From the NCBI GenBank assembly GCA_009377635.1, contig WHTR01000001.1, forward strand, positions 41,257-105,256: a stretch of 64,000 bases of DNA, given 5' to 3'. Made by a program: the position numbers and the translations under genes. Of this stretch, positions 26,176 to 56,074 are shown piece by piece. The DNA is from Chloroflexota bacterium. Lineage in GTDB: Bacteria > Chloroflexota > UBA6077 > SHYK01. The notes below the pieces were generated by a model. It saw only the letters and a list, made by a program, of their open reading frames with translations, was not told the origin of the DNA and ran no database searches. The stretch's first letter is position 1, and the number at the start of each line of letters is the position of its first letter.

Positions 26176-27138
26176 TTACCTCGCCGTTCCCTCGGACGCC
26201 AGCTCGTCGATAAACCCGGCGTTATCCAGCTCCCGCAGGTCGTGCAGGTCCCACAGCGCCAGCGCACTGACCGCTCGTGCCTCCGGGTACTGCATGCAGC
26301 AAAGCTCATAGGCGTTCGCCACGGCCAGCGGATCCGGGTACGGCTTCAGAGGCAACCGCGCCAAGCCCGCAGCACGCCCGCCCCGGCCACCCTCGGAGAA
26401 CGCCGCACTCGGCTGGCCGAGCAGCGCCTGCGCCTCCTCCTGGTGCGTCCGAGCAAAGTGAATCGTCAGGACCATCGCCTTCACCAACCGCTCCCCCAGC
26501 CGATCCTTGGCATGGAGCGCGGTGAGCGATGTGGTGATCGTCGGACCGGTGATCATCGGGAGCGGGTCGAGCCGCAGGACGGAGAACCCCGCCTGCTCGT
26601 AGTCCTCGACACCACCCGACACGAACGTCGCGTCGCAGGTGCCGCCCGTCATCGCCTCCCACTGCGCCTTACGAAACGCCTCCCCCATGTAGTCAGCGAC
26701 CACGACCCACTCCACCTCGTCGAGCCCCACCCCGGCCTGCTTGACGTACAGCATGTGGTTGCCCCGGATGTGGTGGTAGCCCCCGATCGGATCCTCGATG
26801 GCCGTGTCGGCGATGCGCTTGCCTCGCAGGTCACCGAGCGTGCGGATCGGCTCGCGCGAGATCACCGCGTCGCGCACGCGATTCCCCGGCGAGGCCAGGC
26901 ACACGATTGGCTTGCCCTGCGCCACCTTGGCGTATGGGCTGATGTGGTTACCCGCCACGACGTCGACCCGTCCGTCAAAGAGCGCCGCCTCGGCCTTCGA
27001 CGAGCTCTCGCAGAAGGCCAGGCTCGCCAGCCGCATGTGGAGCTGGCCGAGGACACCGGCCTTGTCCGCCAGCTCCCAGATCGTCGAATGGCCCGCCCTG
27101 AACTCCACGTGCAGCTCGACGGGGCTGTAGTCCGCCAC
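26176..27138 (-). CDS. NMT1/THI5/SsuA-fold protein without signal peptide
   Basis: GTG start at 27138 (VADYSPVELHV) is preceded by GAGGAGG. The track start at 27174 is a TTG. Confidence 0.5.
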   Translation of the reverse strand: MADYSPVELHVEFRAGHSTIWELADKAGVLGQLHMRLASLAFCESSSKAEAALFDGRVDVVAGNHISPYAKVAQGKPIVCLASPGNRVRDAVISREPIRTLGDLRGKRIADTAIEDPIGGYHHIRGNHMLYVKQAGVGLDEVEWVVVADYMGEAFRKAQWEAMTGGTCDATFVSGGVEDYEQAGFSVLRLDPLPMITGPTITTSLTALHAKDRLGERLVKAMVLTIHFARTHQEEAQALLGQPSAAFSEGGRGGRAAGLARLPLKPYPDPLAVANAYELCCMQYPEARAVSALALWDLHDLRELDNAGFIDELASEGTAR

Positions 27139-27210
27139 GGCTCGCCTCCTCGTTTCGCAACAGTCGCCAATCAAGCGCCTCGGGTAGCACGGTGCTGCCC
27201 CACGCTCGTC

Positions 27211-28932
27211 TCATTCGAGCTCCCACTCGTGGATGTTGAAGGTGATGAGCGTGTCGTTCAGCGTCCCGGGATCCGGCCCGCGGAGAACGTTCAGGTAGGC
27301 GGTCGCAGCGAAGTTGAAGAACAGCGGGATCACCGGCAGCTCTTCGCTGATCAGGGCCTCCATCCGGACGACCTGGGTGTTCCGCTCGGCGCGGTCAAGG
27401 GTGACGGTGAAGGTCTCCCATAGCCGATCGTACTCCGGGTGCGACCAGCCACCCCGGTTGCCACCCTGCCACCGGTTCTGCGCCGTGCCGATGTCCGCCG
27501 TGCGGAGGAACTGCATGCGGTCCTCCCAGACCCCCTGCCCAGTCGCATTCTGCACGCCAGGGAACGTGGCGCGCTCCTCTGCGTCGCGGGACCGAGCGAC
27601 CGGAACGATGTAGGCTTCGGCATCGACCCCTGCTCGCCGCCAGGTGTCTACCATGATCGCCGTCTCCCGCTCTGGCTGGGCTCCGGCCTGGTTCATGAGC
27701 TGCAGGCCGAAGCGCTCGCCGGCCGCGTTGACAAGCATCCCGTCGGCACCTTTCACGGAGCCGGCCTCGTTCAGAAGCTGCTCGCTGCGGAGCGGATCGT
27801 AGTTGTACGTGGTGACGGCGCGCTCGATGTCACTGAAGTAAGGGACGCTGTGGCGGATCAGGTTCGCGGTCATGACCCCCGCGCCGTCGAACAGGCCGTC
27901 GTTGAGTGCCTGCTTGTCGATGGCGAGGGCAAGGGCCCGCCGGACGCGGACGTCGAGCAGCGCGCGGGGGCTGGCGTACTCGGGTCTCATCTGGACATGC
28001 GTGTACCGCCCCTGCGTGGGTGTCAGCACGACCGTCCCCGTCCCGCTCGCGGCCCATTCAGCCCTCAGCGGGCTCGCCTGCTCGAAGCGGATCGCGCGGT
28101 CCGCCACGATGTGCACGTTCTCAGAGAGCAGATTCGCATGGGCCGTGTTCTCATCAGCGACGAAGCGGATATGCAGCCGGTCGATCTTCGGCCGGCCCAG
28201 GACGTGGCCGTCGAACGCAACCCCCTCGAGATGGGCGCCCGGCTCCCAGCGATCGAGCCGGAAGGGTCCCAGGCCAACGTACTCGGTGGTCCAGAAGGGA
28301 TGGTTGATGAATGCGTCCGGCTCGCCCTCCTGGAATGGCTGCTCAAGAAGATGCCGGGGCAACGCCTGGAACCCGTCCGCCAGCGACTCGGCAAAGGGGT
28401 ACGGCTGCCGCCATCGGATCACGAGCGTGCGGGCGCTCGGCGCCGCCACTTCCTCCATCAGTCCTTGCGGCGCGCGATCGGCGATCCCGAGCTCGCGCGC
28501 CGCGTAGACACGCCACGCGAAGACGAAGTCCTCGGCATGCAGTGGCACGCCGTCATGCCACGTAACGTCGGGCTTGAGGCGATACGTCGTCTCCATGCGC
28601 CCGTCCGGCAGCAGGCGCCAGCTGTCCGTGTTGAGCTGCGGCAGCACCTCCGCCAGGTACGGACGCGGCTGCTCGCGGGTGTCCTCGATGTCGAGGGTGG
28701 CGTTGAAGGACCGGGTCGCGTTCTGGATGCTGATGCCGCCGGCAACCAGCGCCTTCGCCGCCAGCGTGTTCGGCTCGGCTCGGATCAGCATGTTGAGCGT
28801 CCCGCCCCGGCGGGGCGTCGACACCTGGTCGCCGCTCACGCTCGGCGCTCCCGAGGACGGCCCCACACCGGCGCACGCGGACAACATGACGATCGACACA
28901 CCCAGGAGGATCGGCTTCCATTGTGCCGACAT
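27211..28932 (-). CDS. ABC transporter substrate-binding lipoprotein, family 5; orphan
   Basis: Start MSAQWKPILLGVSIVMLSAC at 28932 is preceded by GGAGAGAGG. 573 aa. Confidence 0.8.
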   Translation of the reverse strand: MSAQWKPILLGVSIVMLSACAGVGPSSGAPSVSGDQVSTPRRGGTLNMLIRAEPNTLAAKALVAGGISIQNATRSFNATLDIEDTREQPRPYLAEVLPQLNTDSWRLLPDGRMETTYRLKPDVTWHDGVPLHAEDFVFAWRVYAARELGIADRAPQGLMEEVAAPSARTLVIRWRQPYPFAESLADGFQALPRHLLEQPFQEGEPDAFINHPFWTTEYVGLGPFRLDRWEPGAHLEGVAFDGHVLGRPKIDRLHIRFVADENTAHANLLSENVHIVADRAIRFEQASPLRAEWAASGTGTVVLTPTQGRYTHVQMRPEYASPRALLDVRVRRALALAIDKQALNDGLFDGAGVMTANLIRHSVPYFSDIERAVTTYNYDPLRSEQLLNEAGSVKGADGMLVNAAGERFGLQLMNQAGAQPERETAIMVDTWRRAGVDAEAYIVPVARSRDAEERATFPGVQNATGQGVWEDRMQFLRTADIGTAQNRWQGGNRGGWSHPEYDRLWETFTVTLDRAERNTQVVRMEALISEELPVIPLFFNFAATAYLNVLRGPDPGTLNDTLITFNIHEWELE

Positions 28933-29032
28933 GGCGTCCTCTCTCCCCTGCTCGTTCGCGGACACATCGAGCGAATCCAAACCGCGTTCGTGCCGCTCAA
29001 GCACCGGTGGTGATCGGCAGGGCTACCGTCTC

Positions 29033-30412
29033 CTACTCGGCCACGCGGCTCGCCAGCTCGCGCGTCTCCTGGATCTCCACGTCGGCCCGCTCCCAGAACC
29101 GGTGCCAGTCAACGGAGGCGGGGAGTACGAGATCATTGCGCACGACGATGCGCTCGAAATGGTTATCGACTGGATTCCGAACCACGTGGGGCGGCTCGCG
29201 GCCCGCCTGCACGTCCCGGATCGCGGCGAGGAGCACCTTCCGCGCGGCGAAGAGGCCCCGGTCGGTGTAGCCGAGATGCTCGGTCGTCCGATCCTGAACG
29301 GGCCCCTCTCCCTCGGTCGCCATGGTGTCGTGCAGGATGAAGTTTCGGCCCAGGCCGGAGAAGCTCTGGGTCTGCATCTCGTCGCGGTCCTGGAGATACC
29401 GATTGGCATTGTTTCGCGTCAGCCAGTAGTCGCTCGTTTTGTCCGCACCTAGTCGCCGCCTCGGATCGACGGGCGTGGACCGATTGAAGCGGATGCCGTA
29501 CCGCCAATGGTGCGTGTCATCGATCGGCATGTGCCAGTTCACGCTGTACCCCTCACGGTCGCCGGCAACGCCGCTGAGGTTGGGAAGAATGAAGTTCGTG
29601 ACCCGAACGTAGGTGCGGTCCGGGCCGGCGGGCCGCACCGCGTAGATCCGGACCCCGAAGTCTGTGATCTCCGGCTCGATCGTGGGGCAGGTGAACCGCG
29701 TGTTGAGCGACTGACGGACTCCGTCCTCGGTGCTGCCGTCGGCGGCGAGCCGGTGCAGGAACGACAGGTGCGCGGGATCGAGATTCCCCTCGTTCCCCTG
29801 CAGGAAGTTGCACTCCTGAAACGTCTTGCTGCTCGACCAGAACCCGTCGGGGGCCGACAGGAACTCGTAGGCCGGCAGCAACGGCGGCTCGCCGGGCCCC
29901 AGGTACGCGAAGATGATGCCCGTGTGCTCAACGCACGGATAGGCGGTGTGGCGAATGCGCTCGCGGAAGCTGCGCGCCGCCCCTGCCGGGGAGCCAGGCT
30001 CGTCGCTGCCTCCAACGTCCTGGGCCGCCATGTTGGAGGACGGGGCCGAGTCCCGTCCTCCCCAATGGGAGCGGCGCCCCGCCGCCTCGCCGGGCTGCTC
30101 GAGGCATCGCCCCTGAACGTCGTAGAGCCATCCGTGGTAGAGGCAGCGGAGCCCGCCATCCTCGATCCGGCCGTAGCTCAGGTCGGCGCCGCGGTGCGAG
30201 CAGTGGAGCCCCAGCAGCCCAGGCCGCCCCTGCTCGTCGCGGAACAGGACGAGATCCTCGCCGAGGAGCCGAACCGGCAACGGCGGCCCGCCTGGGGGCA
30301 GCTCCTCCCCAAGGGCGGCCGGCTGCCAGTAGCGGCGCAGCAGCTCCCCCATGCCGGTTCCCGGGCCGACCCGGGTCAGCAGCTCCTGCTCTTCCCTCGA
30401 TGCCATCGCCAC
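29033..30412 (-). CDS. Rieske non-heme iron oxygenase alpha subunit (phthalate/KshA/VanA-like, alpha-only type)
   Basis: N-terminal EEQELLTRVGPGT…RYWQP. Rieske CSHRG…C.YHGW present. GGAGGTG RBS. Confidence 0.85.
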   Translation of the reverse strand: MAMASREEQELLTRVGPGTGMGELLRRYWQPAALGEELPPGGPPLPVRLLGEDLVLFRDEQGRPGLLGLHCSHRGADLSYGRIEDGGLRCLYHGWLYDVQGRCLEQPGEAAGRRSHWGGRDSAPSSNMAAQDVGGSDEPGSPAGAARSFRERIRHTAYPCVEHTGIIFAYLGPGEPPLLPAYEFLSAPDGFWSSSKTFQECNFLQGNEGNLDPAHLSFLHRLAADGSTEDGVRQSLNTRFTCPTIEPEITDFGVRIYAVRPAGPDRTYVRVTNFILPNLSGVAGDREGYSVNWHMPIDDTHHWRYGIRFNRSTPVDPRRRLGADKTSDYWLTRNNANRYLQDRDEMQTQSFSGLGRNFILHDTMATEGEGPVQDRTTEHLGYTDRGLFAARKVLLAAIRDVQAGREPPHVVRNPVDNHFERIVVRNDLVLPASVDWHRFWERADVEIQETRELASRVAE

Positions 30413-30427
30413 ACCTCCATCGCCGGA

Positions 30428-31891
30428 TCACTGCTCGGGGAAGGGGAGGATACCCCGATACTTCTCCACCACCTGCCGACGCAGCGCGCGCGGCGCCCGA
30501 CTCACCTGCGGGAACTGATCCCTGAGCTGAAACGGCCGCGTCGCGTAGAAAATCGCCATGCTATTCGTGTGGTCGCCTGCGTCGGACCGCGCCCGGTCCG
30601 CCGACACGAGCGGGTCGAGCGGCGTACTCCAGCACCCATCGACGATCTCGATGTCCCGCGCCGGGTCGCAGCGGGTCGTCATCGCCCAGAGCACCTCCTT
30701 CAGGTCGGTGGCGTCGATGTCCTCGTCGACGACCACAATCCACCGGCCGTTCCGCGTCGCCGCGAATGCCGCGTGCGCCGCCTGCTTCGCGTGCCCCGGG
30801 AAGCGCTGCCGAAGCGAGATGGCCCGAATGTACCCCATGTGGCTCGCCGACTGGACAACGTCCTGGACGCCGGCCCGGAGCAGGTCGGCAACACCGGCGC
30901 GGCCTTCGCCGAGCGCGAGTCCGCCGTCGCTGCGGGCGCCGGGCCACATCGGGGCGCCACCCCCGAGGATCGGGGTGTTCCGATGATAGATCGCCTTGAC
31001 CCGAATCACTGGCTGGGGCTCGCCCGTCCCCACGGTGCCCCCGGAGTAGTAGCCCGGCCACTCCCCGAACGGCCCCTCGTCACGCGCCTCCACCCACGGA
31101 GGCGGGACCTCGCCCTCGATGGCGATCTCCGCGTGAGCGGGAATCGGAAGCCCGGTGATCGGCCCGCGCACGATCGCGACGGCCCGTCCACGGATGCCGC
31201 CGGCGTAATCCAGCTCCGACTCCCCCCAGGGCAGCCGGGTGTGGGAGGCCATGAACAGCAGCGGATCCTCACCAAAGACCGCCACCACCGGGCAGCTCTC
31301 CCCCCTCTCCCAGTACCGCTGGCAGATCAAGCGCCCCTGCTGACCCGGACTCATCCACAGGCCGAGGAGGTTCCGCTCGTGCACCTCCATTCGATAGGTG
31401 CCGACGTTGACGTAGCCGGAATCCGGGTCCTTATTGATGAGCGAGTCGTGCGTCCCGATGTAGCGGCCGCCGTCCATGGCGTGGTAGCGCGGCACTGGGA
31501 AGCGCAGGAGGTCGACCTCGTCCCCGGTGAGGACGTTCTCCATCACGGGCCCGGTCGGCACCTCCTCGGGCGGGATCGGGCGCGCCTCCCGGAGCTTGCG
31601 CCGCCCCAGCTCGGACAGCTCCTGGCGGCTCTTCCCCTCGAGCGGGAGGCCGAGCGCCAGAGCCATCCGCTTGGCTCCTCCGATCACATTCGTCGCGATG
31701 CGAAAGCCCGGCGGGTAGCCATTGACCGCATCGAAGATCAGCATGGGCGGGTCGGGGATCAGCTCGGCGGTCGCCTCGAGGAGAGCCCCGATCTCCTCGT
31801 TCCAATCGGCGCCTTCGATGATCCGGTACTCGTCCACCTCCATCGCCGCATCGACGAACTCCTGGAGCCCGTCGAAGACCGTTCCGGACAT
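30428..31891 (-). CDS. UbiD-family decarboxylase
   Basis: 487 aa, colinear with 1103..2527 over its whole length. Confidence 0.85.
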   Translation of the reverse strand: MSGTVFDGLQEFVDAAMEVDEYRIIEGADWNEEIGALLEATAELIPDPPMLIFDAVNGYPPGFRIATNVIGGAKRMALALGLPLEGKSRQELSELGRRKLREARPIPPEEVPTGPVMENVLTGDEVDLLRFPVPRYHAMDGGRYIGTHDSLINKDPDSGYVNVGTYRMEVHERNLLGLWMSPGQQGRLICQRYWERGESCPVVAVFGEDPLLFMASHTRLPWGESELDYAGGIRGRAVAIVRGPITGLPIPAHAEIAIEGEVPPPWVEARDEGPFGEWPGYYSGGTVGTGEPQPVIRVKAIYHRNTPILGGGAPMWPGARSDGGLALGEGRAGVADLLRAGVQDVVQSASHMGYIRAISLRQRFPGHAKQAAHAAFAATRNGRWIVVVDEDIDATDLKEVLWAMTTRCDPARDIEIVDGCWSTPLDPLVSADRARSDAGDHTNSMAIFYATRPFQLRDQFPQVSRAPRALRRQVVEKYRGILPFPEQ

Positions 31892-31985
31892 CTCGATCCT
31901 CCTCCTCTACTGCTCACCGAACCTCGCGGTCGATGCTCCTGAATCGCGCCGATCAACGGGCGGCACCCCGCTGGGTCGGTAGATT

Positions 31986-32765
31986 CTAGCGCGGCTGCGG
32001 TGCGGGCAGGGCTGCGGGTGATACCTGCCAGTACGTGCGCCAGTCGACGGAGGCCGAGATCGTGTCCCCGCGCACCACGAGGGGAAAACGGTTGTGCGCA
32101 GGATCGCGGACCACGCCGGGAGGGTCAACGCCCTCTTCGAGTTCTTTGATGGCCCGAATCAGCATGGTGCGGGCGGCGACGATGGCTCGGTCGCCAAAGC
32201 CGAGGTGTTCCTGTGCGCGGTCCTGAATGGGCCGACTCTCGGTGACACAGAGGTCCTGCGCCTGGAAGTACTGGTTGGGGATTCCGCTGTACACGACATC
32301 CCCCATCAGGGAGCGGTCCTCGAGGTAGCGGTTCGCCTTGTGCGGCACCGGCTGGTAGTCAGGGCCAATGGGTGTGCGGCCACGGCGAGCCGCGTCGCGC
32401 TCGATCCGCTCCTCGGCCCGGTATTGGAAGGTGTACTTCCAGTGGTGCTCGTCGTCGATGGGGACGTGCCAGTTGATGCTGTAGCCGTCGCCGCGACCGC
32501 CCCCGAAGGCGCTGGAGTTGGGCACCAGGAAGTAGCTCAGATCCGCGCCGCGGTGGGAACAGTGGAGGCCAAGCAGGCCGGGTCGCCCCTGTTCATCTCT
32601 GAACAGGACCAGGTCCTCACCAAGCAAGCGGACTGGGAGGGGCGCGCCGCCTGGCGGCAGCTCGGACTGAAGCGCCACCGGCTGCCAGTAGCGCCGCAGC
32701 AGTTCACCCGCCGGGGTGCCGGGCCCCGTCAGGGTCAGCAGATCGTTTTGTTCCTTGGTAAGCAC
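31986..32765 (-). pseudogene. Rieske oxygenase alpha-subunit paralog with ~200-aa in-frame internal deletion (second Rieske Cys/His pair and catalytic core lost)
   Basis: Residues 1-77 are near-identical to 29033..30412 up to HCSHRGADLSY, then join directly to …GDGYSINWHVPIDDEHHW. No C.YHGW box. Confidence 0.6.
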
Positions 32766-32780
32766 GGTCGCCGCTCTCCT

Positions 32781-33962
32781 CTAGTCGTCGGGGCTGGGAA
32801 CCTGATGGGACATGAAGATCTCGCGGCGGTCGCGAGCTGACTGCATGATGCCGAGCACGACCTCGAGGGTGGCCTCGCCCCACCGGCCATCGTGGAACAC
32901 CGGTCGCTTCTCGGCAATGGCGCGGTACAGCTCCTCGAGCTCGGCCTGGCGTCCTCGGGCCTCGAGGGGGACGGGCACCTCGTACTTCCCTTCATCTCCG
33001 TAGACGGACAGCCCGTCGGGTGATTGGCGGATGTCGCCGTGCTCGCAGCTCACGATGGTCAGGCCGAAGAAGGGCTGGTGCTGGCGCTCGCCGCCACGCC
33101 CGTAGCCCTCGCCGCCACCTGCGTAGCGCTGCCGCTCCTTCAATGCAGTCTCGTCGTCGACTTCCACCAGTCGTTTGCGGGTCTTGACGTTGCTTTCCGG
33201 GTCGGAGGGCTGACCGCCCTCCCCGATCCAGTAGGTGAGCTCAGCGGTGTCGAAGTGGGCGTAGCCGTTGTAGACCGAGGTGGCCGGTGTTCCATCTTCG
33301 AACTCCACGTAGGCGCACCACGCTCCCTCGGCCCGGCGGGCCGGATCCCAGGTGCCCGTCATGGCCCGTACGCTCCGAACCATCCCACCGGCGATGAGCC
33401 GCAAGATGTCGATCTGATGTGGACCCTGGTAGTAGACGACACTGCCCCCAACCATGGCGTCCAGCTCGTGCGGCATGCGCGGCCGGTACATGAACTGGTT
33501 GAAGAACCAGCTCTGGATCATGCCCAGCTTCCCCAGCTCGCCGCTCTTCACGATCTCCCGCATTCTCTTGATAGGAGGATCGAAACTGTGGGTGTGTCCG
33601 CACAGGAGGTGGACCCCGTTTCGCTCGGCGGCTTCGTTCATGCGCTCACACTCCTCGAGCGTGAGGACCATCGGCTTCTCGACGATGGCGTGTTTGCCGT
33701 GGTTCGCTGCGGTGATCACGTGCTCGCAGTGCAGATGGTTCGGCGTACAGACGTAGATGGCATCCACGTTCGGGCTCTTTGCCATCTCCTCGACACGCTC
33801 ATACGCCTCGGCCTCGTATGCACGGGAAAAGACCTCCAGGGCGTGCTTGCGGACATCAGCCGCCGCGGTGACCTGGAGATGGGGCCGACCCCCGAACGCC
33901 GCCAGAATCTGATTGCTCGCGACGCCAAGCCCCGCAATGCCGAATCGCAGCACTTGGGCCAT
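32781..33962 (-). CDS. Gfo/Idh/MocA-family NAD(P)-dependent oxidoreductase (putative cis-diol/sugar dehydrogenase)
   Basis: Start MAQVLRFGIAGLGVAS at 33962 is preceded by GGGAGGG. N-terminal Rossmann domain plus C-terminal alpha/beta domain. Confidence 0.8.
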   Translation of the reverse strand: MAQVLRFGIAGLGVASNQILAAFGGRPHLQVTAAADVRKHALEVFSRAYEAEAYERVEEMAKSPNVDAIYVCTPNHLHCEHVITAANHGKHAIVEKPMVLTLEECERMNEAAERNGVHLLCGHTHSFDPPIKRMREIVKSGELGKLGMIQSWFFNQFMYRPRMPHELDAMVGGSVVYYQGPHQIDILRLIAGGMVRSVRAMTGTWDPARRAEGAWCAYVEFEDGTPATSVYNGYAHFDTAELTYWIGEGGQPSDPESNVKTRKRLVEVDDETALKERQRYAGGGEGYGRGGERQHQPFFGLTIVSCEHGDIRQSPDGLSVYGDEGKYEVPVPLEARGRQAELEELYRAIAEKRPVFHDGRWGEATLEVVLGIMQSARDRREIFMSHQVPSPDD

Positions 33963-34215
33963 ACAGGTGTCCCTCCCTATGACTCCGACCCTCCGGTTCG
34001 ACCGGATGGAGACCGTCAAGGTCGAAGCCTGGAAACCAGCCTACAAACCCGCCGTTGGGTCGGCTTCGACGGGTCCACACCGCCGCGAGTATAGCATCGA
34101 GCTGAGAGGGGGGCAATGACCCGGAGGCTGATCCGTACGCCCCAGTTTCCCCCGAGACCATACCCGGTGGCGACGTGGGCACGGTGCAGAAACGCGCTCG
34201 CGGCCGACCGGCAAG

Positions 34216-35118
34216 CTACGCTTCTTCCTTGATGAAGTCAGCGAGCCGCTCCCCGATCATGATGCAGGTCAGATTGGTATTGGCGTGGGTCACCGTCGGC
34301 ATGATGGCCGCGTCAGCGACGCGCAGGTTGTCGAGTCCGTGGATACGGAGCCGGTGGTCAACAACCGCCAGGGGATCCGAGGGTGGGCCCATGAGGCACG
34401 TCCCCGCCCCGTGGTGATAGCTGCTCTTGGTATCGCGGGCGAAGGCTCCCCAGTCATCCTTCGGGCCGGGCTGGATGAGTGGCCCGTAGAAGGCTTTGAG
34501 CGGTGCCTGGTGAACCAGGTCGTCGACGAACTGCATGATCGAGGTGATGGCCTCGATGTCATCGGGGTGCTCGAGCATGGCGTCCTCGATGTGCGGCAGC
34601 TCGCGCGGGTCGGCGCTGGCCAGGCGAACGCGTCCCCTCGCCCGCTGCTCCAGCAGGTGCGCCGTGATCGGCATCATGCGTTTGAGGCCGGCCACCTCGG
34701 TGGGCGGGCGCATGAAGATGTGGGAGTTCCCGCAGGGCAGGCTGGGGTCGCTCTTGATCATGAGTTGGAAGCGAGGGACCACCCACTCCGGCCGGAACTC
34801 GGTCATCCCCTCGAACGTCATTGAGATCGAGGCGTGGTCCTGGTAGTTCTCGCCCACGCCCTCGAGCGGGTGGACCACCGGGATGCCGAGCCGCTTCAGC
34901 TCCATGATCGGTCCAACCCCGGAGAGCATGAGGATCTGCGGGCTGTGATAGACGCCGGCGCTCAAGACCACCTGGTCGCCCACGGCTTCGTACATCTGTC
35001 CCCCGCGTTCGTAGACGACGCGTTCGACCCGGCGGCCGACGACTTGCAGCGAGCTGACGGTGGCCTCGGCGACCACCTGCAGGTTCTCCCGACCCCGAGC
35101 TAGACGAGGCCTGGTCAT
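34216..35118 (-). pseudogene. GMC (choline dehydrogenase-like) oxidoreductase, C-terminal 300 aa only
   Basis: GMC C-terminal substrate-binding domain with the HHGAGTCLMG active-site region. The FAD-binding N-terminus is missing; the gene ends where intron-like sequence begins. Confidence 0.6.
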
Positions 35119-45720: not shown

Positions 45721-45725
45721 GATCG

Positions 45726-47454: not shown

Positions 47455-47758
47455 ATCGCGGTAGGGACAGCCCTTGCGGGCTGCCCCCCGCACAGATCCC
47501 AGCGCGCGGCATTACCGCACTGGGCTCCTGCCTCGGGTACGGGCGTCGAAGCGCTCACGAGGGGAGGATGCCTTGTCCCTTCGTGCTCCTTCACGCACAC
47601 GATCCAGCTCGTTTGGCACGCCTGGCCCGGCACTGCGTCCGGGACGTGTTGTGCTGGTCGTGTTCCCCTTGGCCGGGCGCCTTTCCTCCACCACCTCCGC
47701 GGCCGAAGCCTTGTTCGGCGGCTTCGCAGGTGTCGGGTCGGGGGAGGCGGCGGAGCAC
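47455..47758 (-). mobile_element. 3' segment of an intron-1-like group II intron (host intron 1'): RT leader remainder, ORF deletion, domain V/VI
   Basis: Reverse complement aligns to 35494..35660 and 36900..36997 of intron 1. Candidate domain V at 47495..47527. Ends …CGCGAT|CCTCAAG 11 nt after the SBP stop. Confidence 0.55.
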
Positions 47759-49852
47759 GCTCCGCTACCTCCGCCCGCCCTTCCGAACCGCCCGTGCGGT
47801 TTTCCCGCAAGCGGCTCTCACCGGGAGTAGCCCTTCTGGCGGTAGTAGCTCGCCATGCTGGGGATCAGCTGCAGGAGGTTGACCAGGCCGCATTCCCCAT
47901 AGAGCTTCGCTCGGGGTAGTCGCTTCCACCCCGCGTTGCGCCACCGTTTGTGGCGCCAGCTCCAGATACGCCGCACAATCCAGCCATTGAGCCGGTGGAA
48001 CAACCGCCGCACATGTGCACGGCGGTAGTAGTTGCCCCACCCTCGGATGACGGGGTTGAGCTCGTCCAACACCCCTTCGAGGGCCTTCGGGTTCCGCCGA
48101 TTGGTAATCTGGCGTACCCTGTTCTTGAAGCGCTCGACCGAGCGGTCCCGAGGATACGCGTACAGGTCCGGGACTCCGGCCTTGTACTTCATCCCCGTCC
48201 CCCGCTTGATCTTGTACCCCAAGAACTCGAAGCCCTGAGCGACATGGACGATGCGCGTCTTGTCCGGGTGAACCCGAAGCCCGAGTTCTCCCTCCAGCAC
48301 TGCTCGGGCGCTCGCCAGCGCCCGCTCCGCCTCCCGCCGGGACGCGCAGACGATCACCCAATCATCGCCGTACCTGGTGAGGGCAGAGCCAGCCTCTGCC
48401 ATCTTCTCATCGAAGACGTGCAGATAGACGTTGCTGAGCAACGGGCTGACCACCCCACCTTGAGGAACCCCAGCGATCGTGGGCTCCACCTGTCCATCCC
48501 GGAGCACGCCGGCCTGGAGAAACTGCCATAGCAGCCTCAACACCTTGCTGTCCGCCACCCTCTCCGCCACGAAGTCGACCAGGGTGGAGTGCGAGAGCGT
48601 CCCGAAGTAGTCGGCGATGTCCGCGTCCACCACCCAGCAGTTCCCTGCCTTCAGCTGCCGCCAGATGCGCCGCATGGCCATATGCGTCGACCGCCCCGGG
48701 CGAAAGCCGAAGCTCTCGTCTCGAAACGTCGGCTCAAAGATCGGCTCCAGGACCTGCACCAGGGCCTGCTGACATACCCGATCCATCACCGTCGGGATTC
48801 CCAACGGGCGCTTGGTGTTCGAGCCTGGCTTGTCGATCTCCACCCGCCGCACGGGCCGCGGCCGATAGCTGCCATCTTTCAGCTTCTGATGCAGGAGAGC
48901 GAGGTAGTGGTCCCGGTCCTCCTCAAACCGAGCGACGGTCATTCCGTCAACGCCGCCAGCGCCCCTCTTCGCCTTGACGCGCTCCCACGCCCCGGCCAGG
49001 TTCCGTGGGTCATAGACCTGGTAGATCAGCGAGTGCGCCTTGCGTGCCTGCACGGACTGCACCTACCTGGCTCCCCATCGCCGGCTCTCGGGTCTCCTCA
49101 GCGCCAGCGCCTCGGTCATTGCCGCAGCAACCATCAGTCCGCTGGCATCCCTACTCGCCCGATCCCCGGCTCGGCTCGCCATCTCCCGACGTGACCCCTT
49201 CCCCCTGGTCGGCGCCTTTTGGGTCACCGCCCGCCGCCTCACGATGGAGACGGTCCCGGGGCTTGTGTTCTTCCCCGGTTCATGAGTACCACGGGTCACT
49301 CCGACTTCTCGCACGGCATCCCCGACGACTTCACCTGCCGGCTTATACGCCCAGGTACCCACCCCCGTCGAGGCGGGACCGTACGAGACCTCCCGGGGTA
49401 ACGTATGCTCCTTTCCCACCGTGCCGCCCGCACACACCTTGATGCGCCCAGGCACTCCAAGTATTTCCTTCGCCGCCATAGTGCCGGCTCGGTCTCGCCT
49501 GGACTTTGGCCGACCGGTTCGCCTTGTTCGGCTCCGGCCCGGTGGTTCGCCGCAAACCCTTCAGACCCCACCTCACGGTGGGCGCCCTGTCCTGCGTGCC
49601 TGACGCCGAAGACCGCGAGACGAGTGGCGGCCGACATGACGGTCGGTAGGTGACGCGCGCACATCCCGGTCGTTTCCTGAACCGGCGCCCATGTCCCGTC
49701 ACCGTGGGCCATCCCCTGCCACACCCCCTCTCGTCTCCTCCAACACCAGCCACACCCGGCGAGGCATTACCCCCGCCTTTGGCTACGGACCCCGCTTGGA
49801 GAACGGTCCGGCTGGACTTTCACCAGCTAGGAACATGCGCCGCCCGGCGCAC
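47759..49852 (-). mobile_element. group II intron (intron 2), apparently intact, nested inside intron 1'
   Basis: 5' GTGCGCC at 49852, 3' …CGAC at 47759. Domain V GAGCCGCTTGCGGGAAAACCGCACGGGCGGTTC at 47784..47816 (minus), right after the RT stop. ~2.1 kb. Confidence 0.65.
47818..49062 (-). CDS. group II intron reverse transcriptase/maturase (no endonuclease domain evident)
   Basis: 414 aa. GAGGVDGMT…LGIPTVMDRVCQQAL…YGDDWVIV…maturase X region. Possible frameshifted leader upstream (49063..49479). Confidence 0.8.
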   Translation of the reverse strand: MQSVQARKAHSLIYQVYDPRNLAGAWERVKAKRGAGGVDGMTVARFEEDRDHYLALLHQKLKDGSYRPRPVRRVEIDKPGSNTKRPLGIPTVMDRVCQQALVQVLEPIFEPTFRDESFGFRPGRSTHMAMRRIWRQLKAGNCWVVDADIADYFGTLSHSTLVDFVAERVADSKVLRLLWQFLQAGVLRDGQVEPTIAGVPQGGVVSPLLSNVYLHVFDEKMAEAGSALTRYGDDWVIVCASRREAERALASARAVLEGELGLRVHPDKTRIVHVAQGFEFLGYKIKRGTGMKYKAGVPDLYAYPRDRSVERFKNRVRQITNRRNPKALEGVLDELNPVIRGWGNYYRRAHVRRLFHRLNGWIVRRIWSWRHKRWRNAGWKRLPRAKLYGECGLVNLLQLIPSMASYYRQKGYSR

Positions 49853-50230
49853 ACTATGAACCAGTCCGACTTCCCCTGCCCGTCCATCATCGGCGTACGT
49901 CTCTCGACTTCCCGATGCGACCCGCCGAGCCATCCCCGACGGGTGGACAGGGGACCTCCCAGCTTCTGCGCAAGGTGCTTCCGTGCATGCTCGGGGTCTT
50001 CGACTCCGCAGGGCCCCAGCCCATCTCGCGATACCGATGGGCCAGATGTTGCCTTCCGCCTAACCCGACGGCGTCGGCGCCCCACTCGAGGGACTTTTCG
50101 GAGCTCAATACCCAGCCTGCACGTACCCCTGTCAACGTTTCACCCGCGTCGTTACCGCCGCCGGCGCATGACTCGGAGAACAAGGTGGTTCGCTACTCCT
50201 TCCTTGTGCGAGACTTTCACTCGCTACACC
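49853..50230 (-). mobile_element. 5' segment of host intron 1' including RT start remnant MMDGQGKSDWFIV; 5' boundary uncertain
   Basis: Minus strand ATGATGGACGGGCAGGGGAAGTCGGACTGGTTCATAGT immediately precedes the GTGCGCC 5' end of intron 2. Parallels MHDRGKSDVPVV of intron 1. Confidence 0.4.
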
Positions 50231-50527
50231 CCGCCAGCTTTGCTGGCGCTTTCGAGGACGAGCCCCAGCGCTGTCGCCACGCCCCTGGCGAGCGTCGTCT
50301 TACCCGTTGCCGGGGCGCCCGACACAATGACCAGCATCGGTCGGGATGTCACACCGCCATGGCATTCAGGCATCCGTGACGCCCTACCGGACCCTGGCGT
50401 AGATGGCCGCATCACGTGGTTCCGGGAACCCGCTGAACCGGGCATATCGACGGAAGACGCCCTCGCGGTGCATCCCGGCCTTGACCATCACTCGCCCCGA
50501 CGCAACGTTCTCCAGATCACAGTAGCC

Positions 50528-50737
50528 TCAGACCCGATGCAGTTCCGGCGTGGCCAGTGCCGCGTCGAGCACCGCGCGCAACGCCTCGGTGGCGTAGCCC
50601 TTGCCCCACGCCGCTCGGGCTACGACGAAGCCGATTTCACCTCCGCGGTCTCCCAGCGCGAGCCCCATCATGCCGAGCACGGACGGCGTACCGCTTCCAA
50701 CACGACACAGGTACTCGTTCTCTTCGTTCGTCAGCAC
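50528..50737 (-). pseudogene. chimeric remnant: Rieske oxygenase N-terminus (18 aa) fused to a GNAT acetyltransferase C-terminal fragment
   Basis: MLTNEENEYLCRVGSGTP (cf. ENELLTRVGPGTP) then …GEIGFVVARAAWGKGYATEALRAVLD (GNAT motif A). Confidence 0.35.
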
Positions 50738-50750
50738 GGTTGTCGCTCCG

Positions 50751-52078
50751 CTAACGCTTCACCGGCACCTGGTGGCTGAGCCGTATCTCCGCAGCTTGGG
50801 CTGCGGAATGCATGATCGCGAGGACCACCTCCATTGTCGCCATGCCCCACCAACCGTCATGAAGCGACGGCTTGCGGTCCATGGCGGCGCGGAGCTCGGG
50901 GACCTCGTTGCTGCGGTTGTCGCCCAGGCCAGCAATCAGCTCATCATGGCGACCGTCGTCATCGTAGACGTACAGGCCGCTGGCCGACTGCCGGATCCTG
51001 CCCCGCTCGCAAGCGGCTACCACTATTCCAGCGTCCATTGGCGTCCAGTTCCCATCCCGGTCCGGGAAGCGGCTCTCTCCCCGATCAGAGCCAAACCTGA
51101 GCCGTTCTTTGCCTCCGTACTCGTCCGCGGTTCCAGCCCGCAACGCCTTCCGATACTGCATCGGGCCCTCCGCGGCAGACAGCCGAGCCGGGGTTTCCCC
51201 CCACGGCACCAGCTCCCACCCGGCCATGTAGCCGTATCCGTCATACATGAGCGTGGCTGGAGTGCCGTCCTCGAACTGCAGACATGCGTTGATGTAGCCC
51301 GGACAGGGGCGGCCCGCGAGCGGGAACTCTACTGTGGCGCCCCGCACACTGCGCACCAGCCCACCGCCGAGCAGCCGCAGGACGTCGACTGGGTGAGGCG
51401 CCTGGTTGAACACCGTGCCTCCGCCTTGTGAGACATCCACCTCATGGGGCTCGCGGGGACGCAGGATCCAACCCGTGTATGCCCACGCGGCCAATCCCCC
51501 GAGTCGCCCCAGGCGACCGGAGTCTATGACGCTCCGCATCGCCACGAAGGCAGGGTCGAAGCTGCGGGCGCCTCCGGCGGTGAGCACCACGTTGTTCTTC
51601 GCACAGGCCTCGATCATTCGCTGGCACTCATCGAGCGAAGTCGCCATCGGCTTTTCGACCACGGCGTGCCTACTGGCGCCTGCGATCTGGGCCACGTGCT
51701 CGCAGTGCAGATGGCTGGGGGTGGACACCCATACGGCTTCGACTTCCGGATCCGACAGCAGACCACCCAGGCTGGTGTACGTACGGCCCTCGAACTGGTC
51801 GCGAAACGCCGCTAGAGGTGCGGCCGAAAACGCCTTCTGTCATCCTGAGCGAAGCGAAGGATCTCCCCTTAAGCGTAAATTGGCGGTCACGAGAGATCCT
51901 TCGTCGCTGCGCTCCTCAGGATGACGGGGCTTTGCGGCCGGGGTTCTAGGGCCTGTTCGCGAGGATCGGCGGCCGCCACCAGGTCCACGCCCGGGATGCG
52001 GGCCAGAGAACGAACGATCCCCCCGCCAGCCATGCCCAGGCCTACGATGCCGGCTCTGATACTCGAGCTTTCAGCCAT
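50751..52078 (-). pseudogene. Gfo/Idh/MocA oxidoreductase split by a ~135-bp MITE insertion
   Basis: N-terminal Rossmann part (51887..52078: IRAGIVGLGMAGG…AADPREQAL) and the rest (50751..~51811: AAFRDQFEG…TPSHLHCEHV…) are colinear with 32781..33962 once 51812..51949 is removed. Confidence 0.65.
51812..51949. mobile_element. miniature inverted-repeat element (IS630/Tc1-like MITE) flanked by CTAG
   Basis: CTAG at 51812..51815 and 51946..51949. ~50-bp imperfect terminal inverted repeats (GTCATCCTGAG…GAAGGATCTC). No coding capacity. Confidence 0.55.
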
Positions 52079-52084
52079 CAGCGC

Positions 52085-52366
52085 TCAGCCCTCGCGAGCA
52101 TAGTACTCGATGGTCCTGGAGACTCCCTCCTGGGTTGGAGGCGGGCCTCCCCGGGCCCGATTGCGCTCATCGAGAACTTCCTGGCTCTCCCACAGCTCGA
52201 TCAGTGCCCACCGCTCCGTCTGGCGCACGCTCCGGAACACTTCAAATTGGAGACACCCGGGCTCGTTCTGGACCGACTGCGACCGCTCGGCCAATCGGGA
52301 CACGGACTCGTCGGCCCTGGCGACGCTGTCGGCGGTGAACTGGACCACGACTCGGACCTCTGCCAT
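52085..52366 (-). CDS. antibiotic-biosynthesis-monooxygenase (ABM) domain protein
   Basis: 93 aa; ATG preceded by AAGGAGGG. EPGCLQFEVFRS…ELWESQEVLDEH-like ABM signature. The longer ORF upstream of this ATG is rejected. Confidence 0.7.
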   Translation of the reverse strand: MAEVRVVVQFTADSVARADESVSRLAERSQSVQNEPGCLQFEVFRSVRQTERWALIELWESQEVLDERNRARGGPPPTQEGVSRTIEYYAREG

Positions 52367-55447: not shown

Positions 55448-55462
55448 CTGGTGGTTCTCCCT

Positions 55463-56074
55463 TTAATCTATAGCTGCCTCTGGCACCGGGGTCTGGTGCG
55501 AAAGGGAGACCTCGCGGTGCTCATGGGAAGACTGCAGGATCGCCAGGCACACCTCGAGGGTGGCCTTTCCCCAGCGGCCATCCCGGATGACCGGCCGGTC
55601 CTGGTCGATCGCCCCCAGTAGCTCGTCGATGACCTTTCCCTCCCGGTTCTGCAGCGGCACCGGCGCATTGAAGCCGGAAGAGCCGCGGTCAGTCAGCAGG
55701 CGAACGCCGGCCCGATCCGCCGCCTGGATCATGGCGTCACAGACTTCAAGAGTGAGTGCCATCGGCTTCTCGACGATGATGTGCTTGCCACACTCGGCCG
55801 CCATGATCGCGTGCTGGGCGTGCATCTGGTGGGGCGTGGCGATGAAGACCGCATCGACGTTCGGGCTCCCGCACACTCCCTCGGCATCGGGATAGACCTC
55901 GGCCTCGAACTCGACCGCGAACTTTTCGAGGGCCTCGCGCCGCAAGTCGGCGCCCGCGGTGATCCTGACTCGGGGGTGGCCGGCGATCCCCGGCAGCATC
56001 GAGCCCCCGGCTCGCCCGAGCCCGATGACGCCGATCCTGAGGGGTTGCCCCTGGCTCCTTGCGGAAGCTGTCAT
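55463..56074 (-). pseudogene. Gfo/Idh/MocA oxidoreductase paralog with ~200-aa in-frame internal deletion
   Basis: Rossmann N-terminus (IGVIGLGRAGG…HIIVEKPMALT…) joined directly to the C-terminal tail (…RPVIRDGRWGKATLEVCLAILQSS…). Compare the full-length 32781..33962. Confidence 0.55.

What the first reader, a model, noticed from the sequence alone, without database searches (positions are those of the whole stretch)
29033..34019. Gfo/Idh/MocA - Rieske (- UbiD - Rieske) module present in three differently decayed copies
The gene pair Gfo/Idh/MocA oxidoreductase followed by a Rieske alpha subunit occurs three times on the minus strand: 33962..31986, 52078..50737 and 56074..53993. Each copy is inactivated differently: a Rieske in-frame deletion, a MITE in the oxidoreductase plus Rieske truncation, and an oxidoreductase in-frame deletion. 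The first copy also carries a UbiD decarboxylase and an intact Rieske gene. An oxygenase plus a cis-diol-type dehydrogenase (Gfo/Idh/MocA is the OphB type) plus a decarboxylase is the phthalate-isomer catabolic logic, with a UbiD enzyme in place of the usual decarboxylase. No UbiX (prFMN synthase) is present in the window. Repeated duplication followed by piecemeal loss points to a rapidly turning-over catabolic island.
Basis: partly seen in the sequence, partly recalled or inferred. Interest (0 to 1): 0.55.

Follow-up and report, generated by a model that had tools for sequence, protein, structure and literature searches.

The report
Three damaged aromatic-acid oxygenase/dehydrogenase gene pairs
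A soil-type Chloroflexi genome fragment carries three old, diverged copies of a two-gene unit for attacking aromatic acids. Each copy is broken in a different way, but the first operon still holds a complete dehydrogenase, decarboxylase and oxygenase set that also occurs together in other bacterial phyla.

Summary
A Gfo/Idh/MocA dehydrogenase gene is followed 13-15 nt later by a phthalate-family (LigXa_C-type, alpha-only) Rieske oxygenase gene three times on the minus strand.

- **Copy 1:** the Rieske gene has an in-frame deletion of about 149 codons.
- **Copy 2:** the dehydrogenase carries a 130-bp palindromic MITE with a CTAG duplication. The Rieske gene is cut to 19 codons and fused to a GNAT fragment.
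- **Copy 3:** the dehydrogenase has an in-frame deletion of about 0.62 kb.

Two of the junctions recur in independently assembled contigs from the same SRA run.

The copies are ancient paralogs (39-53% amino-acid identity, dS 1.1-1.7). Two of the three dehydrogenases and both testable oxygenases have much closer relatives in other organisms, so there is no evidence of recent or repeated local duplication. Only the decay looks recent.

Copy 1 is not a dead module. Gfo1, UbiD1 and RieskeA are the counterparts of a UbiD-Rieske-Gfo trio found in Binatia, "Deltaproteobacteria", Hyphomicrobiaceae and other Chloroflexota, sometimes next to a bicupin ring-cleavage gene. The deleted RieskeB is an extra paralog.

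The phthalate-like logic is supported by homology (7WZD, 7FJL/7FHR, PhdA). Phthalate itself as substrate is not established. No ubiX lies in the window, nor within the fetched flanks (up to 8 kb a side) of any of 79 related UbiD loci.

The parts
32781..33962 (-). Gfo1: intact Gfo/Idh/MocA dehydrogenase (393 aa from the ATG at 33962), cis-dihydrodiol dehydrogenase type.
   Evidence: Pfam N- and C-terminal domains. PDB matches 3MOI at 4e-96 and 7WZD at 8e-92. The exact protein is present in Logan contig L082.
31986..32765 (-). RieskeB remnant (259 aa) with an in-frame deletion of about 149 codons; junction near 32531/32532. It loses the second Cys-His pair of the [2Fe-2S] site and the His-x4-His iron site.
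   Evidence: alignment A1 against P0002, P0003 and P0005. The junction is covered by L082 at 100% identity.
30428..31891 (-). UbiD1: intact UbiD-family (prFMN-type) decarboxylase, 487 aa, with the EGPFGEW motif.
   Evidence: Three UbiD Pfam domains. End-to-end alignment with PhdA 7PDA at 5.8e-107. Homologs of 55-71% identity in 77 GTDB loci.
29033..30412 (-). RieskeA: apparently intact alpha-only Rieske oxygenase (459 aa). It carries a 34-aa in-frame insertion (about 29977-30079) in the inter-domain linker.
   Evidence: It is the closest window paralog (50-57%) of the Rieske genes that flank UbiD1 homologs elsewhere. The insert DNA folds with z = -3.5.
26176..29004 (-). Two solute-binding protein genes in the same direction: SBP_bac_5 at 27211-29004 and NMT1-like at 26176-27174.
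   Evidence: Pfam. Gaps between the genes are 28 and 36 nt.
34216..35118 (-). GMC oxidoreductase remnant upstream of Gfo1; the N-terminal half is missing.
   Evidence: Pfam GMC_oxred_N positions 139-217 only, plus GMC_oxred_C. The same truncated gene is in L082.
50751..52078 (-). Gfo2: dehydrogenase gene interrupted by a MITE. It would be 397 aa once the insert is removed.
51812..51949 (-). 130-nt palindromic MITE (51816-51945) flanked by CTAG at 51946-51949 and 51812-51815.
   Evidence: Excising 134 nt restores the ORF. Hairpin z = -5.2. A 26-27-nt core is also found in Chloroflexota loci L056 (twice) and L018. Only one copy occurs in the window.
50681..50737 (-). Rieske stub: the first 19 codons only, 13 nt after the Gfo2 stop.
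   Evidence: Translation. It matches the family N-terminus in alignment A1.
50387..50680 (-). GNAT acetyltransferase C-terminal fragment with an internal stop, fused to the Rieske stub.
   Evidence: PF13302 at 7e-19, profile positions 66-138; translation.
47732..50217 (-). Group II intron with an RT/maturase ORF (47818-49062), directly downstream of the copy 2 wreck.
   Evidence: Rfam RF02005, RF02001 and RF00029. Pfam RVT_1 and GIIM.
52085..52366 (-). ABM-family small monooxygenase-like gene, 6 nt upstream of Gfo2.
   Evidence: Pfam PF03992.
55463..56074 (-). Gfo3 remnant (203 aa): the Rossmann domain plus the C-terminal tail. The in-frame deletion of about 0.62 kb has its junction near 55657-55665.
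   Evidence: The same locus is reproduced in Logan contig L001.
53993..55447 (-). RieskeC: intact alpha-only Rieske oxygenase (484 aa).
   Evidence: Pfam. PDB 7FHR at 2.7e-109. A 72% homolog follows an intact Gfo in L087.
56380..56640 (-). LigB-type extradiol dioxygenase remnant between a further Rieske gene and Gfo3.
   Evidence: PF02900, profile positions 146-246 of 269 only.
56720..58075 (-). A further, divergent Rieske oxygenase paralog heading the copy 3 gene string.
   Evidence: Pfam; alignment A1.
1112..2521 (-). UbiD2: a second UbiD paralog (45-46% identical to UbiD1), next to SBP genes and near three bicupin genes.

Best explanation
The window comes from a Chloroflexota metagenome-assembled genome; contigs assembled from a dinosaur-bone (Centrosaurus fossil) metagenome run match it. 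It holds a large family of anciently diverged paralogs for oxidising aromatic carboxylates. These comprise six phthalate-family alpha-only Rieske oxygenase genes, three Gfo/Idh/MocA cis-dihydrodiol dehydrogenase genes and two UbiD decarboxylase genes, plus bicupin and LigB ring-cleavage genes and many solute-binding proteins.

The three Gfo-to-Rieske dicistrons are old family members, not recent local duplicates. Each has suffered its own comparatively recent lesion: two in-frame deletions, one MITE insertion, and one deletion that fuses a Rieske stub to a GNAT fragment.

Inferred mechanism (not shown here): the Rieske oxygenase, fed by a reductase encoded elsewhere, cis-dihydroxylates an aromatic acid. 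The Gfo enzyme re-aromatises the diol with NAD(P)+. The UbiD enzyme, which needs prFMN from a UbiX encoded elsewhere, removes a carboxyl group. A ring-cleavage dioxygenase then follows.

In the first operon the set Gfo1 + UbiD1 + RieskeA is intact and corresponds to a UbiD-Rieske-Gfo trio conserved in other phyla. That operon is probably still functional, and the deleted RieskeB is a dispensable extra. Copy 3 keeps only its oxygenase. Copy 2 is dead.
For: Gene identities and lesions.

Independent assemblies across two junctions.

Source sample: a self-hit named 'MAG... Chloroflexi bacterium'. SRR10173838 is the Centrosaurus bone metagenome.

Ancient divergence:
- Paralog identity is 39-53% with dS 1.1-1.7.
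- 37 identical residues of RieskeA and RieskeB are encoded with 25 of 111 nucleotide differences, so there is no gene conversion or assembly collapse.
- Closer relatives exist elsewhere: Gfo1 61-64%, Gfo3 79%, RieskeC 72%, RieskeB 73%.

Recent lesions:
- Excising the MITE restores a perfect ORF.
- The Gfo3 remnant and a homologous remnant in L002 give dN/dS = 0.11 over the retained domain.
- All 80 metagenome homologs of Gfo are full length.

Conserved trio:
- UbiD-Rieske-Gfo in L040, L050 and L072, and more loosely in L069 and L076.
- Rieske within 400 nt of the UbiD1 homolog in 14 of 77 loci.
- A bicupin gene upstream in L050 and L072.

Biochemical analogy: 7WZD, 7FJL/7FHR and 7PDA.
Against: - No function was tested, and the substrate is unknown.
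- RieskeA carries an unusual 34-aa insert that could impair it.
- No reductase, ferredoxin or ubiX was found in the window, so activity depends on genes that were not seen.
- Most UbiD1 homologs (63 of 77 loci) have no adjacent Rieske gene, so the linkage is recurrent rather than universal.
- The Logan contigs come from the same sequencing run as the MAG is likely to, so they are independent assemblies but not independent data.
Confidence: 0.72

Rival explanations
1. One reading: one Gfo-Rieske(-UbiD-Rieske) module was duplicated repeatedly and recently within this island, and the copies are now being lost piecemeal. This would indicate rapid turnover.
For: All three pairs share the same gene order, strand and 13-15-nt spacer. 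The window holds many mobile elements and remnants.
Against: dS is 1.1-1.7 and amino-acid identity is 39-53% between copies. DNA similarity is limited to short conserved cores. Gfo1, Gfo3, RieskeB and RieskeC have closer homologs in other organisms than in the window. UbiD occurs only in copy 1, and its conserved partners elsewhere are RieskeA and Gfo1, not RieskeB.
Confidence: 0.1
2. The in-frame deleted ORFs are not junk. In this reading Gfo3 is a 203-aa Rossmann-only protein and RieskeB a 259-aa protein. Either they are kept as functional short proteins, or only non-polar (in-frame) lesions survive because the downstream genes (UbiD1-RieskeA, RieskeC) must still be expressed.
For: Both operon-internal lesions that lie upstream of intact genes are in frame, whereas the frame-breaking MITE sits upstream of a dead gene. 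A related contig, L002, carries an independent in-frame deletion in a homologous Gfo that also keeps the Rossmann domain and the C-terminal tail. dN/dS over the retained domain is 0.11.
Against: - RieskeB lacks two of the four cluster ligands and the iron-binding histidines.
- Gfo3 lacks the whole substrate-binding domain.
- The low dN/dS can reflect the time before the deletions.
- Three in-frame events have a chance probability of about 1/27, which is only suggestive.
- In L002 no gene in the same direction follows the remnant.
- Other short Gfo hits in the databases are frameshift fragments, not a conserved short family.
Confidence: 0.15
3. The deletions and the truncation are artefacts of metagenome assembly or binning, caused by chimeric joins between paralogs.
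For: The source is a MAG with many paralogs. L082 ends 85 nt past the RieskeB junction, possibly at an assembly branch point.
Against: A different assembler (Logan) gives identical junctions for RieskeB and Gfo3. The paralogs differ by about 25% at the DNA level even where the proteins are identical, so collapse is unlikely. The copy 2 junctions were not covered by a second assembly.
Confidence: 0.04

Closest known systems
Aerobic phthalate 4,5-dioxygenase pathway (PDO/PhtA or OphA2, cis-4,5-dihydrodiol dehydrogenase OphB/Pht4, 4,5-dihydroxyphthalate decarboxylase) of Comamonas and Burkholderia
   Same: The oxygenase is an alpha-only Rieske enzyme of the same structural family (7FJL 1e-73 to RieskeC; LigXa_C-type catalytic domain). 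The dehydrogenase is a Gfo/Idh/MocA enzyme (7WZD 8e-92 to Gfo1). A decarboxylase is encoded alongside.
   Different: - The decarboxylase is a UbiD-family enzyme. A 2026 review mentions UbiD enzymes only in the anaerobic CoA-dependent routes. From my own knowledge, the classical dihydroxyphthalate decarboxylase is a smaller, unrelated protein.
- No PDR-type reductase is adjacent.
- Arg207 of PDO_KF1 has no counterpart in RieskeA.
- The best structural match, RO_CH34 (7FHR), does not turn over phthalate.
PhdA, phenazine-1-carboxylic acid decarboxylase of Mycolicibacterium fortuitum (PDB 7PDA)
   Same: It is the closest solved relative of UbiD1, aligned over residues 5-483 at E = 5.8e-107, with the EGPFGEW catalytic motif conserved.
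   Different: It is a moderate-identity homolog only, so no substrate can be inferred. No adjacent ubiX (PhdB-like) gene is present.
Phthaloyl-CoA decarboxylase (Pcd) with succinyl-CoA:phthalate CoA-transferase (anaerobic phthalate pathway)
   Same: It is a UbiD-family enzyme. Two family III CoA-transferase genes lie about 6-8 kb away in the window.
   Different: Pcd is a very distant match (4e-11). The CoA-transferase genes are on the other strand, in a separate cluster with a hydratase and a thiolase.
UbiD-Rieske-Gfo gene trios in uncultured Binatia, 'Deltaproteobacteria', Hyphomicrobiaceae and Chloroflexota MAGs (loci L040, L050, L069, L072, L076)
   Same: They hold homologs of UbiD1 (56-59%), RieskeA (47-62%) and Gfo1. 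The Gfo is 61-66% identical in L040, L050, L072 and L076 and 43% in L069. The genes are in the same direction and tightly spaced.
   Different: The order there is UbiD-Rieske-Gfo, or Rieske-Gfo-...-UbiD. The window has Gfo1-[dead RieskeB]-UbiD1-RieskeA. These loci are unannotated and uncharacterised.

Membership tests
Phthalate-family (class IA type, alpha-only) Rieske oxygenases | N-terminal Rieske domain with CxH...CxxH ligands | tested here: met
   RieskeA and RieskeC have both motifs. RieskeB keeps only CSH, and the copy 2 stub has none (alignment A1; Pfam).
Phthalate-family (class IA type, alpha-only) Rieske oxygenases | Catalytic domain with a His-x4-His plus Asp mononuclear iron site, of LigXa_C/PDO type | tested here: met
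   PF19301 matches. The motifs NEGNLDPAHLSFLH and PIDD are present in RieskeA and RieskeC. The site is deleted in RieskeB.
Phthalate-family (class IA type, alpha-only) Rieske oxygenases | No beta subunit; a single FMN/[2Fe-2S] reductase partner | tested here: inconclusive
   No beta-subunit or reductase domain was found among about 55 window ORFs scanned with Pfam. The rest of the genome is not available.
Phthalate 4,5-dioxygenase sensu stricto (PDO_KF1/PDO_DB01) | Substrate-positioning residues Arg207 and Arg244 | tested here: not met
   In the phmmer alignment to 7FJL, RieskeA has an Arg at the Arg244 position (YVRVTNF), but Arg207 falls opposite a gap. The best hit, RO_CH34, is inactive on phthalate.
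Gfo/Idh/MocA cis-dihydrodiol dehydrogenases (OphB/Pht4 type) | N-terminal Rossmann fold with a GxGxxG-type motif and the EKP motif, plus the C-terminal alpha/beta domain | tested here: met
   Gfo1 has both domains and reconstructed Gfo2 aligns with it over its full length. Gfo3 has only the N-terminal domain and the last ~60 residues.
Gfo/Idh/MocA cis-dihydrodiol dehydrogenases (OphB/Pht4 type) | [quoted passage not shown] | tested here: met
   7WZD at 7.9e-92 over residues 23-401 of the 412-aa ORF. JGI annotations of homologs use the same name. NCBIfam has no equivalog above its cutoff.
Gfo/Idh/MocA cis-dihydrodiol dehydrogenases (OphB/Pht4 type) | NAD(P)+-dependent oxidation of an aromatic cis-dihydrodiol | not testable with these tools
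   This needs an enzyme assay.
UbiD-family prFMN-dependent decarboxylases | UbiD_N, UbiD and UbiD_C domains, with the E-x4-E/R catalytic motif | tested here: met
   All three Pfam domains are present. DEGPFGEW aligns with HEGPFGEW of PhdA.
UbiD-family prFMN-dependent decarboxylases | An associated UbiX flavin prenyltransferase | tested here: not met
   tblastn with an E. coli UbiX sequence gave no hit in the window. The query was recalled from memory and validated as PF02441 at 8e-43. It also gave no hit in the fetched flanks (up to 8 kb a side) of 79 related loci. The gene is expected elsewhere in the genome.
MITE (non-autonomous DNA transposon) | Small size, terminal inverted repeats, target-site duplication, no coding capacity | tested here: met
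   The element is 130 nt and forms one long hairpin (z = -5.2). It is flanked by a CTAG duplication, and precise excision restores the ORF.
MITE (non-autonomous DNA transposon) | Multiple copies in the genome | tested here: inconclusive
   There is a single copy in the window. A 26-27-nt core recurs in two other Chloroflexota MAGs.

The most novel reading that the evidence does not exclude
The intact part of copy 1 (Gfo1 + UbiD1 + RieskeA) may represent an uncharacterised aerobic route for aromatic carboxylates that is spread across phyla. In this route a prFMN-dependent UbiD decarboxylase would replace the classical dihydroxy-acid decarboxylase of phthalate-type pathways, or would act first, as PhdA does. 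Its product would feed a bicupin ring-cleavage enzyme. A secondary point concerns the in-frame nature of the two operon-internal deletions, together with a parallel one in a related contig. It may reflect selection against polar lesions upstream of genes that are still needed.
Probability: 0.4. Interest if true: 0.55.

Novelty: new variant of a known kind. Interest (0 to 1): 0.35.

Why it matters
If the UbiD-Rieske-Gfo trio is a working pathway, prFMN-dependent decarboxylation would be part of an aerobic, oxygenase-initiated catabolism of aromatic acids. A 2026 review of phthalate degradation mentions UbiD enzymes only in the anaerobic CoA-dependent routes.

The trio occurs in abundant uncultured soil, subsurface and marine-associated lineages (Chloroflexota/SAR202, Binatia). 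Their large sets of Rieske paralogs are thought to attack recalcitrant organic matter.

The decay pattern itself is ordinary pseudogenisation in a region rich in mobile elements. Its main practical value is as a caution: several ORFs here that would be annotated as 'Rieske 2Fe-2S protein' or 'Gfo/Idh/MocA oxidoreductase' are non-functional remnants.

Tried and rejected
1. Exact-protein look-ups for UbiD1 and the 259-aa RieskeB found nothing. The NCBI contig itself could not be fetched, so the remaining ~50 kb of the 113.6-kb contig and the rest of the MAG could not be searched for ubiX or a reductase.

2. I considered that Gfo3 might belong to a conserved family of short Rossmann-only proteins, because many 120-185-aa hits sit on long contigs. 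Alignment showed that these are frameshift fragments, so I rejected the idea.

3. I considered that Gfo3 and the L002 remnant share one ancestral deletion, which would imply long-term selection on the short form. The intact homolog L087 shows that the two deletions have different endpoints on both sides. It also shows that the unusual 'TDRGSSGF' motif is a subfamily trait and not decay. Rejected.

4. I considered gene conversion or assembly collapse as the source of the 37 identical residues shared by RieskeA and RieskeB, which end exactly at the deletion junction. There are 25 of 111 nucleotide differences in that stretch. Rejected.

5. DNA for P0002, the closest intact RieskeB relative, was unavailable. 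The deletion endpoints of RieskeB are therefore defined at the protein level only.

6. A literature search for the genomic context of PhdA gave nothing useful.

7. The metagenome scan did not recover further close relatives carrying the Gfo3 deletion.

Full report
**Source and setting**

- The window has 58-70% G+C across 2-kb windows.
- The 259-aa RieskeB protein has an identical database entry named 'MAG: Rieske 2Fe-2S domain-containing protein [Chloroflexi bacterium]', on a 113.6-kb NCBI contig.
- Two contigs assembled independently from run SRR10173838 match the window. L082 equals window 32447-35329 at 100%. L001 equals window 53385-58005 at 99.87%.
- That run is the Centrosaurus fossil-bone metagenome of Liang et al. 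2020 (PMC8067395).

**Checking the observation**

Pfam confirms the gene identities on the minus strand:

| Gene | Coordinates | Notes |
|---|---|---|
| RieskeA | 29033-30412 | 459 aa, Rieske + LigXa_C |
| UbiD1 | 30428-31891 | 487 aa, three UbiD domains |
| RieskeB | 31986-32765 | 259 aa; Rieske profile 2-51 of 88 and LigXa_C profile 133-284 of 304 only |
| Gfo1 | 32781-33962 | both Gfo domains |
| Gfo2 | 50751-51728 ORF | N-terminus missing from the ORF |
| RieskeC | 53993-55447 | 484 aa |
| Gfo3 | 55463-56074 | 203 aa, N-terminal domain only |

- **Copy 1.** Aligned with its closest full-length relatives (P0002, 408 aa, 73%; P0003; P0005), RieskeB lacks one block of about 149 residues between '...HRGADLSY' and 'FLVPN...'. 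The deletion removes the second Cys-His pair of the cluster and the His-x4-His iron site. No other short form occurs among the 120 best-scoring hits listed, out of 5,957 with E <= 1e-10.
- **Copy 2, dehydrogenase.** The dehydrogenase starts at 52078 and is interrupted after codon 44. The insert is a 130-nt hairpin element at 51816-51945, flanked by CTAG on both sides. Deleting 134 nt restores a clean 397-aa ORF. The element folds with z = -5.2, and its core recurs in other Chloroflexota MAGs.
- **Copy 2, oxygenase.** Thirteen nt after the Gfo2 stop, the Rieske gene survives as 19 codons. They are fused in frame to the C-terminal half of a GNAT gene that carries a stop. A complete group II intron follows at 47732-50217.
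- **Copy 3.** L087, an intact homolog from a JGI metagenome, has a full-length Gfo (79% identical to Gfo3 over residues 56-139) followed by a Rieske gene 72% identical to RieskeC. The window lacks L087 nt 251-870, about 0.62 kb and in frame.
- **Spacing.** The three Gfo-stop to Rieske-start spacers are 15, 13 and 15 nt.

**Age of the copies**

- DNA similarity between the copies is limited to 49-374-nt patches of 67-76% identity.
- Codon-aligned comparisons give 39-53% amino-acid identity, dN 0.40-0.66 and dS 1.1-1.7 for every Gfo, Rieske and UbiD paralog pair. Synonymous sites are saturated, so the duplications cannot be dated.
- Most copies have clearly closer relatives outside the window: Gfo1 61-64% (L040, L050, L059, L076), Gfo3 79% (L087), RieskeC 72% (L087) and RieskeB 73% (P0002). 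Gfo2 has none closer among the fetched loci (best 44%).
- RieskeA and RieskeB share 37 identical residues that end at the deletion junction. These are encoded with 25 of 111 nucleotide differences, 22 of them at third codon positions. That indicates long purifying selection on both genes, not conversion or assembly collapse.

The duplications are ancient, and the lesions are comparatively young.

**What the genes are**

- **Rieske proteins.** They match RO_CH34 (7FHR; 2.7e-109 for RieskeC) and phthalate dioxygenase PDO_KF1 (7FJL; 1e-73). The structure paper reports that RO_CH34 does not turn over phthalate, and that Arg207 and Arg244 position the substrate in PDO_KF1 (PMC8649396). RieskeA has an Arg at the Arg244 position, but Arg207 falls opposite a gap. 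An aromatic carboxylate is plausible as substrate. Phthalate specifically is not established.
- **UbiD1.** It aligns over its whole length with PhdA, the phenazine-1-carboxylate decarboxylase (7PDA; 5.8e-107), and the EGPFGEW motif is conserved. Phthaloyl-CoA decarboxylase is only a remote match (4e-11).

**Conserved neighbourhoods**

- A scan of GTDB representative genomes returned 79 loci, 77 of which carry a UbiD1 homolog of at least 50% identity. The best are 68-71% identical, from Dehalococcoidia/SAR202, other Chloroflexota, Binatia and MAGs labelled Deltaproteobacteria and Acidobacteria.
- A phthalate-family Rieske gene lies within 400 nt of the UbiD gene in 14 loci. A Gfo1-type gene lies within 3 kb in 5.
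- The ordered trio UbiD-Rieske-Gfo occurs in L040, L050 and L072. Looser versions occur in L069 and L076.
- The Rieske gene next to UbiD is always closest to RieskeA (50-57%), not to RieskeB.
- In L050 and L072 a bicupin gene, of the gentisate-dioxygenase-like type, sits directly upstream.
- Separately, 80 metagenome loci fetched with Gfo3 all carry full-length Gfo genes. Many of these lie next to a Rieske gene, in either order.
- In the window, therefore, Gfo1, UbiD1 and RieskeA together make up the conserved trio, and the deleted RieskeB is an additional paralog wedged between them. Copy 1 is probably still a working unit.

**UbiX and redox partners**

- tblastn with an E. coli UbiX sequence found nothing in the window. 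I recalled the sequence from memory and validated it as PF02441 at 8e-43.
- The same query found nothing in the fetched flanks (up to 8 kb a side) of any of the 79 related loci.
- An absent adjacent ubiX is therefore the norm for this UbiD clade, not a peculiarity of this window.
- No reductase, ferredoxin or beta subunit was seen among about 55 ORFs scanned with Pfam.

**Decay and mobile elements in the window**

Further remnants:
- a GMC oxidoreductase lacking its N-terminal half (34216-35118);
- a LigB fragment (about 56380-56640);
- an SBP_bac_5 gene split by an in-frame stop (45660-47444);
- a partial reverse transcriptase (36050-36940);
- an ornithine cyclodeaminase fragment (22795-23286).

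Mobile elements:
- a group II intron;
- an IS3 element with its ALIL frameshift pseudoknot;
- three tandem tyrosine recombinase genes;
- a DDE transposase.

**In-frame deletions**

- Both lesions that lie upstream of intact genes in the same direction are in frame: RieskeB before UbiD1-RieskeA, and Gfo3 before RieskeC. The frame-breaking MITE lies upstream of a dead gene.
- A related contig (L002; 76% DNA identity) carries a homologous Gfo remnant with its own in-frame deletion.
- Comparison with L087 shows the two deletions are independent. L002 keeps 'ILAMR', which Gfo3 lost, and lacks 44 residues that Gfo3 kept.
- dN/dS over the retained domain is 0.11, but this may reflect the period before the deletions.
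- The pattern is compatible with selection against polar lesions, or with chance (about 1/27). I rate it as a minority hypothesis.

**Comparison with what is known**

- The logic matches the aerobic phthalate 4,5-dioxygenase pathway: a dioxygenase, a Gfo-type diol dehydrogenase and a decarboxylase.
- The decarboxylase here is a UbiD enzyme. A 2026 review mentions UbiD enzymes only in the anaerobic CoA-dependent phthalate routes (PMC13040137).
- I file the locus as a new variant of a known kind. It is supported only by gene content and recurrent synteny.

**Verdict**

- The three pairs are ancient paralogs, each with an independent and fairly recent lesion, in a region rich in mobile elements and pseudogenes.
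- The first operon retains an intact, conserved Gfo/UbiD/Rieske set of unknown substrate.
- Interest is moderate to low.

Noticed in passing
window 29977-30079 (-): RieskeA carries a 34-aa in-frame insertion in the linker between the Rieske and catalytic domains. It is absent from all aligned homologs. Its DNA contains a perfect 10-bp stem (GGAGGACGGG/CCCGTCCTCC) and folds with z = -3.5. It may be a small palindromic element inserted in frame.
   Followed up: partly
window 5724-9595 (-): Three consecutive cupin/bicupin genes (gentisate-dioxygenase-like) lie in a lower-GC block (58-61%) close to the second UbiD gene. Bicupin genes also sit directly upstream of the UbiD-Rieske-Gfo trios in L050 and L072.
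   Followed up: partly
window 37257-45720 (+): A separate cluster runs in one direction: Rieske oxygenase, 3-hydroxyisobutyrate-dehydrogenase-like, CoA-transferase III, MaoC-like hydratase, a second CoA-transferase III, thiolase-like protein, ChsH2-type OB-fold/zinc-ribbon protein, and another Rieske oxygenase. It resembles a side-chain beta-oxidation module.
   Followed up: no
window 131-4640, 20949-22730 and 23295-29004: Solute-binding protein genes are repeated: SBP_bac_5 five times, plus a sixth that is split, and NMT1-like three times, often in pairs. No permease or ATPase genes were seen in the window.
   Followed up: no
window 45660-47444 (+): An SBP_bac_5 gene is split into two same-frame ORFs by a stop codon at 46575-46577, an apparent nonsense mutation.
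   Followed up: partly
window 12016-15365 (-): Three tandem tyrosine recombinase (phage integrase family) genes lie here, next to a fragment with a serine-recombinase zinc ribbon (10460-11776) and a LuxR-type HTH gene.
   Followed up: no
window 17672-19281 (+), with the ALIL pseudoknot at 18502-18615: An IS3-family insertion sequence with its programmed-frameshift pseudoknot (Rfam RF01497, 76.6 bits). The rve domain appears truncated (profile positions 2-76 of 102).
   Followed up: no
window 35456-36940 (+): A partial reverse transcriptase (RVT_1 profile positions 68-204 only) lies next to the truncated GMC oxidoreductase. A degraded retroelement may mark the breakpoint that removed the N-terminus of the GMC gene.
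   Followed up: no
L002 671-1159 (JGI 3300066659): A related organism has a homologous Gfo gene with an independent in-frame internal deletion. There the RieskeC-like gene is divergently oriented instead of downstream.
   Followed up: yes
L003-L008, L010, L074 (Dehalococcoidia/SAR202 MAGs): The closest UbiD1 homologs (70-71%) sit in a conserved arrangement: a Rieske gene followed by UbiD, then 3-5 kb further on a second, divergently transcribed UbiD-like/Rieske pair. In L006 an amidohydrolase_2 gene and ABC-transporter genes lie alongside.
   Followed up: partly
L076 1636-2915: The Rieske gene upstream of Gfo in this Chloroflexota MAG matches in two different reading frames. This is a probable frameshift, either another decaying copy or a sequencing error.
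   Followed up: no
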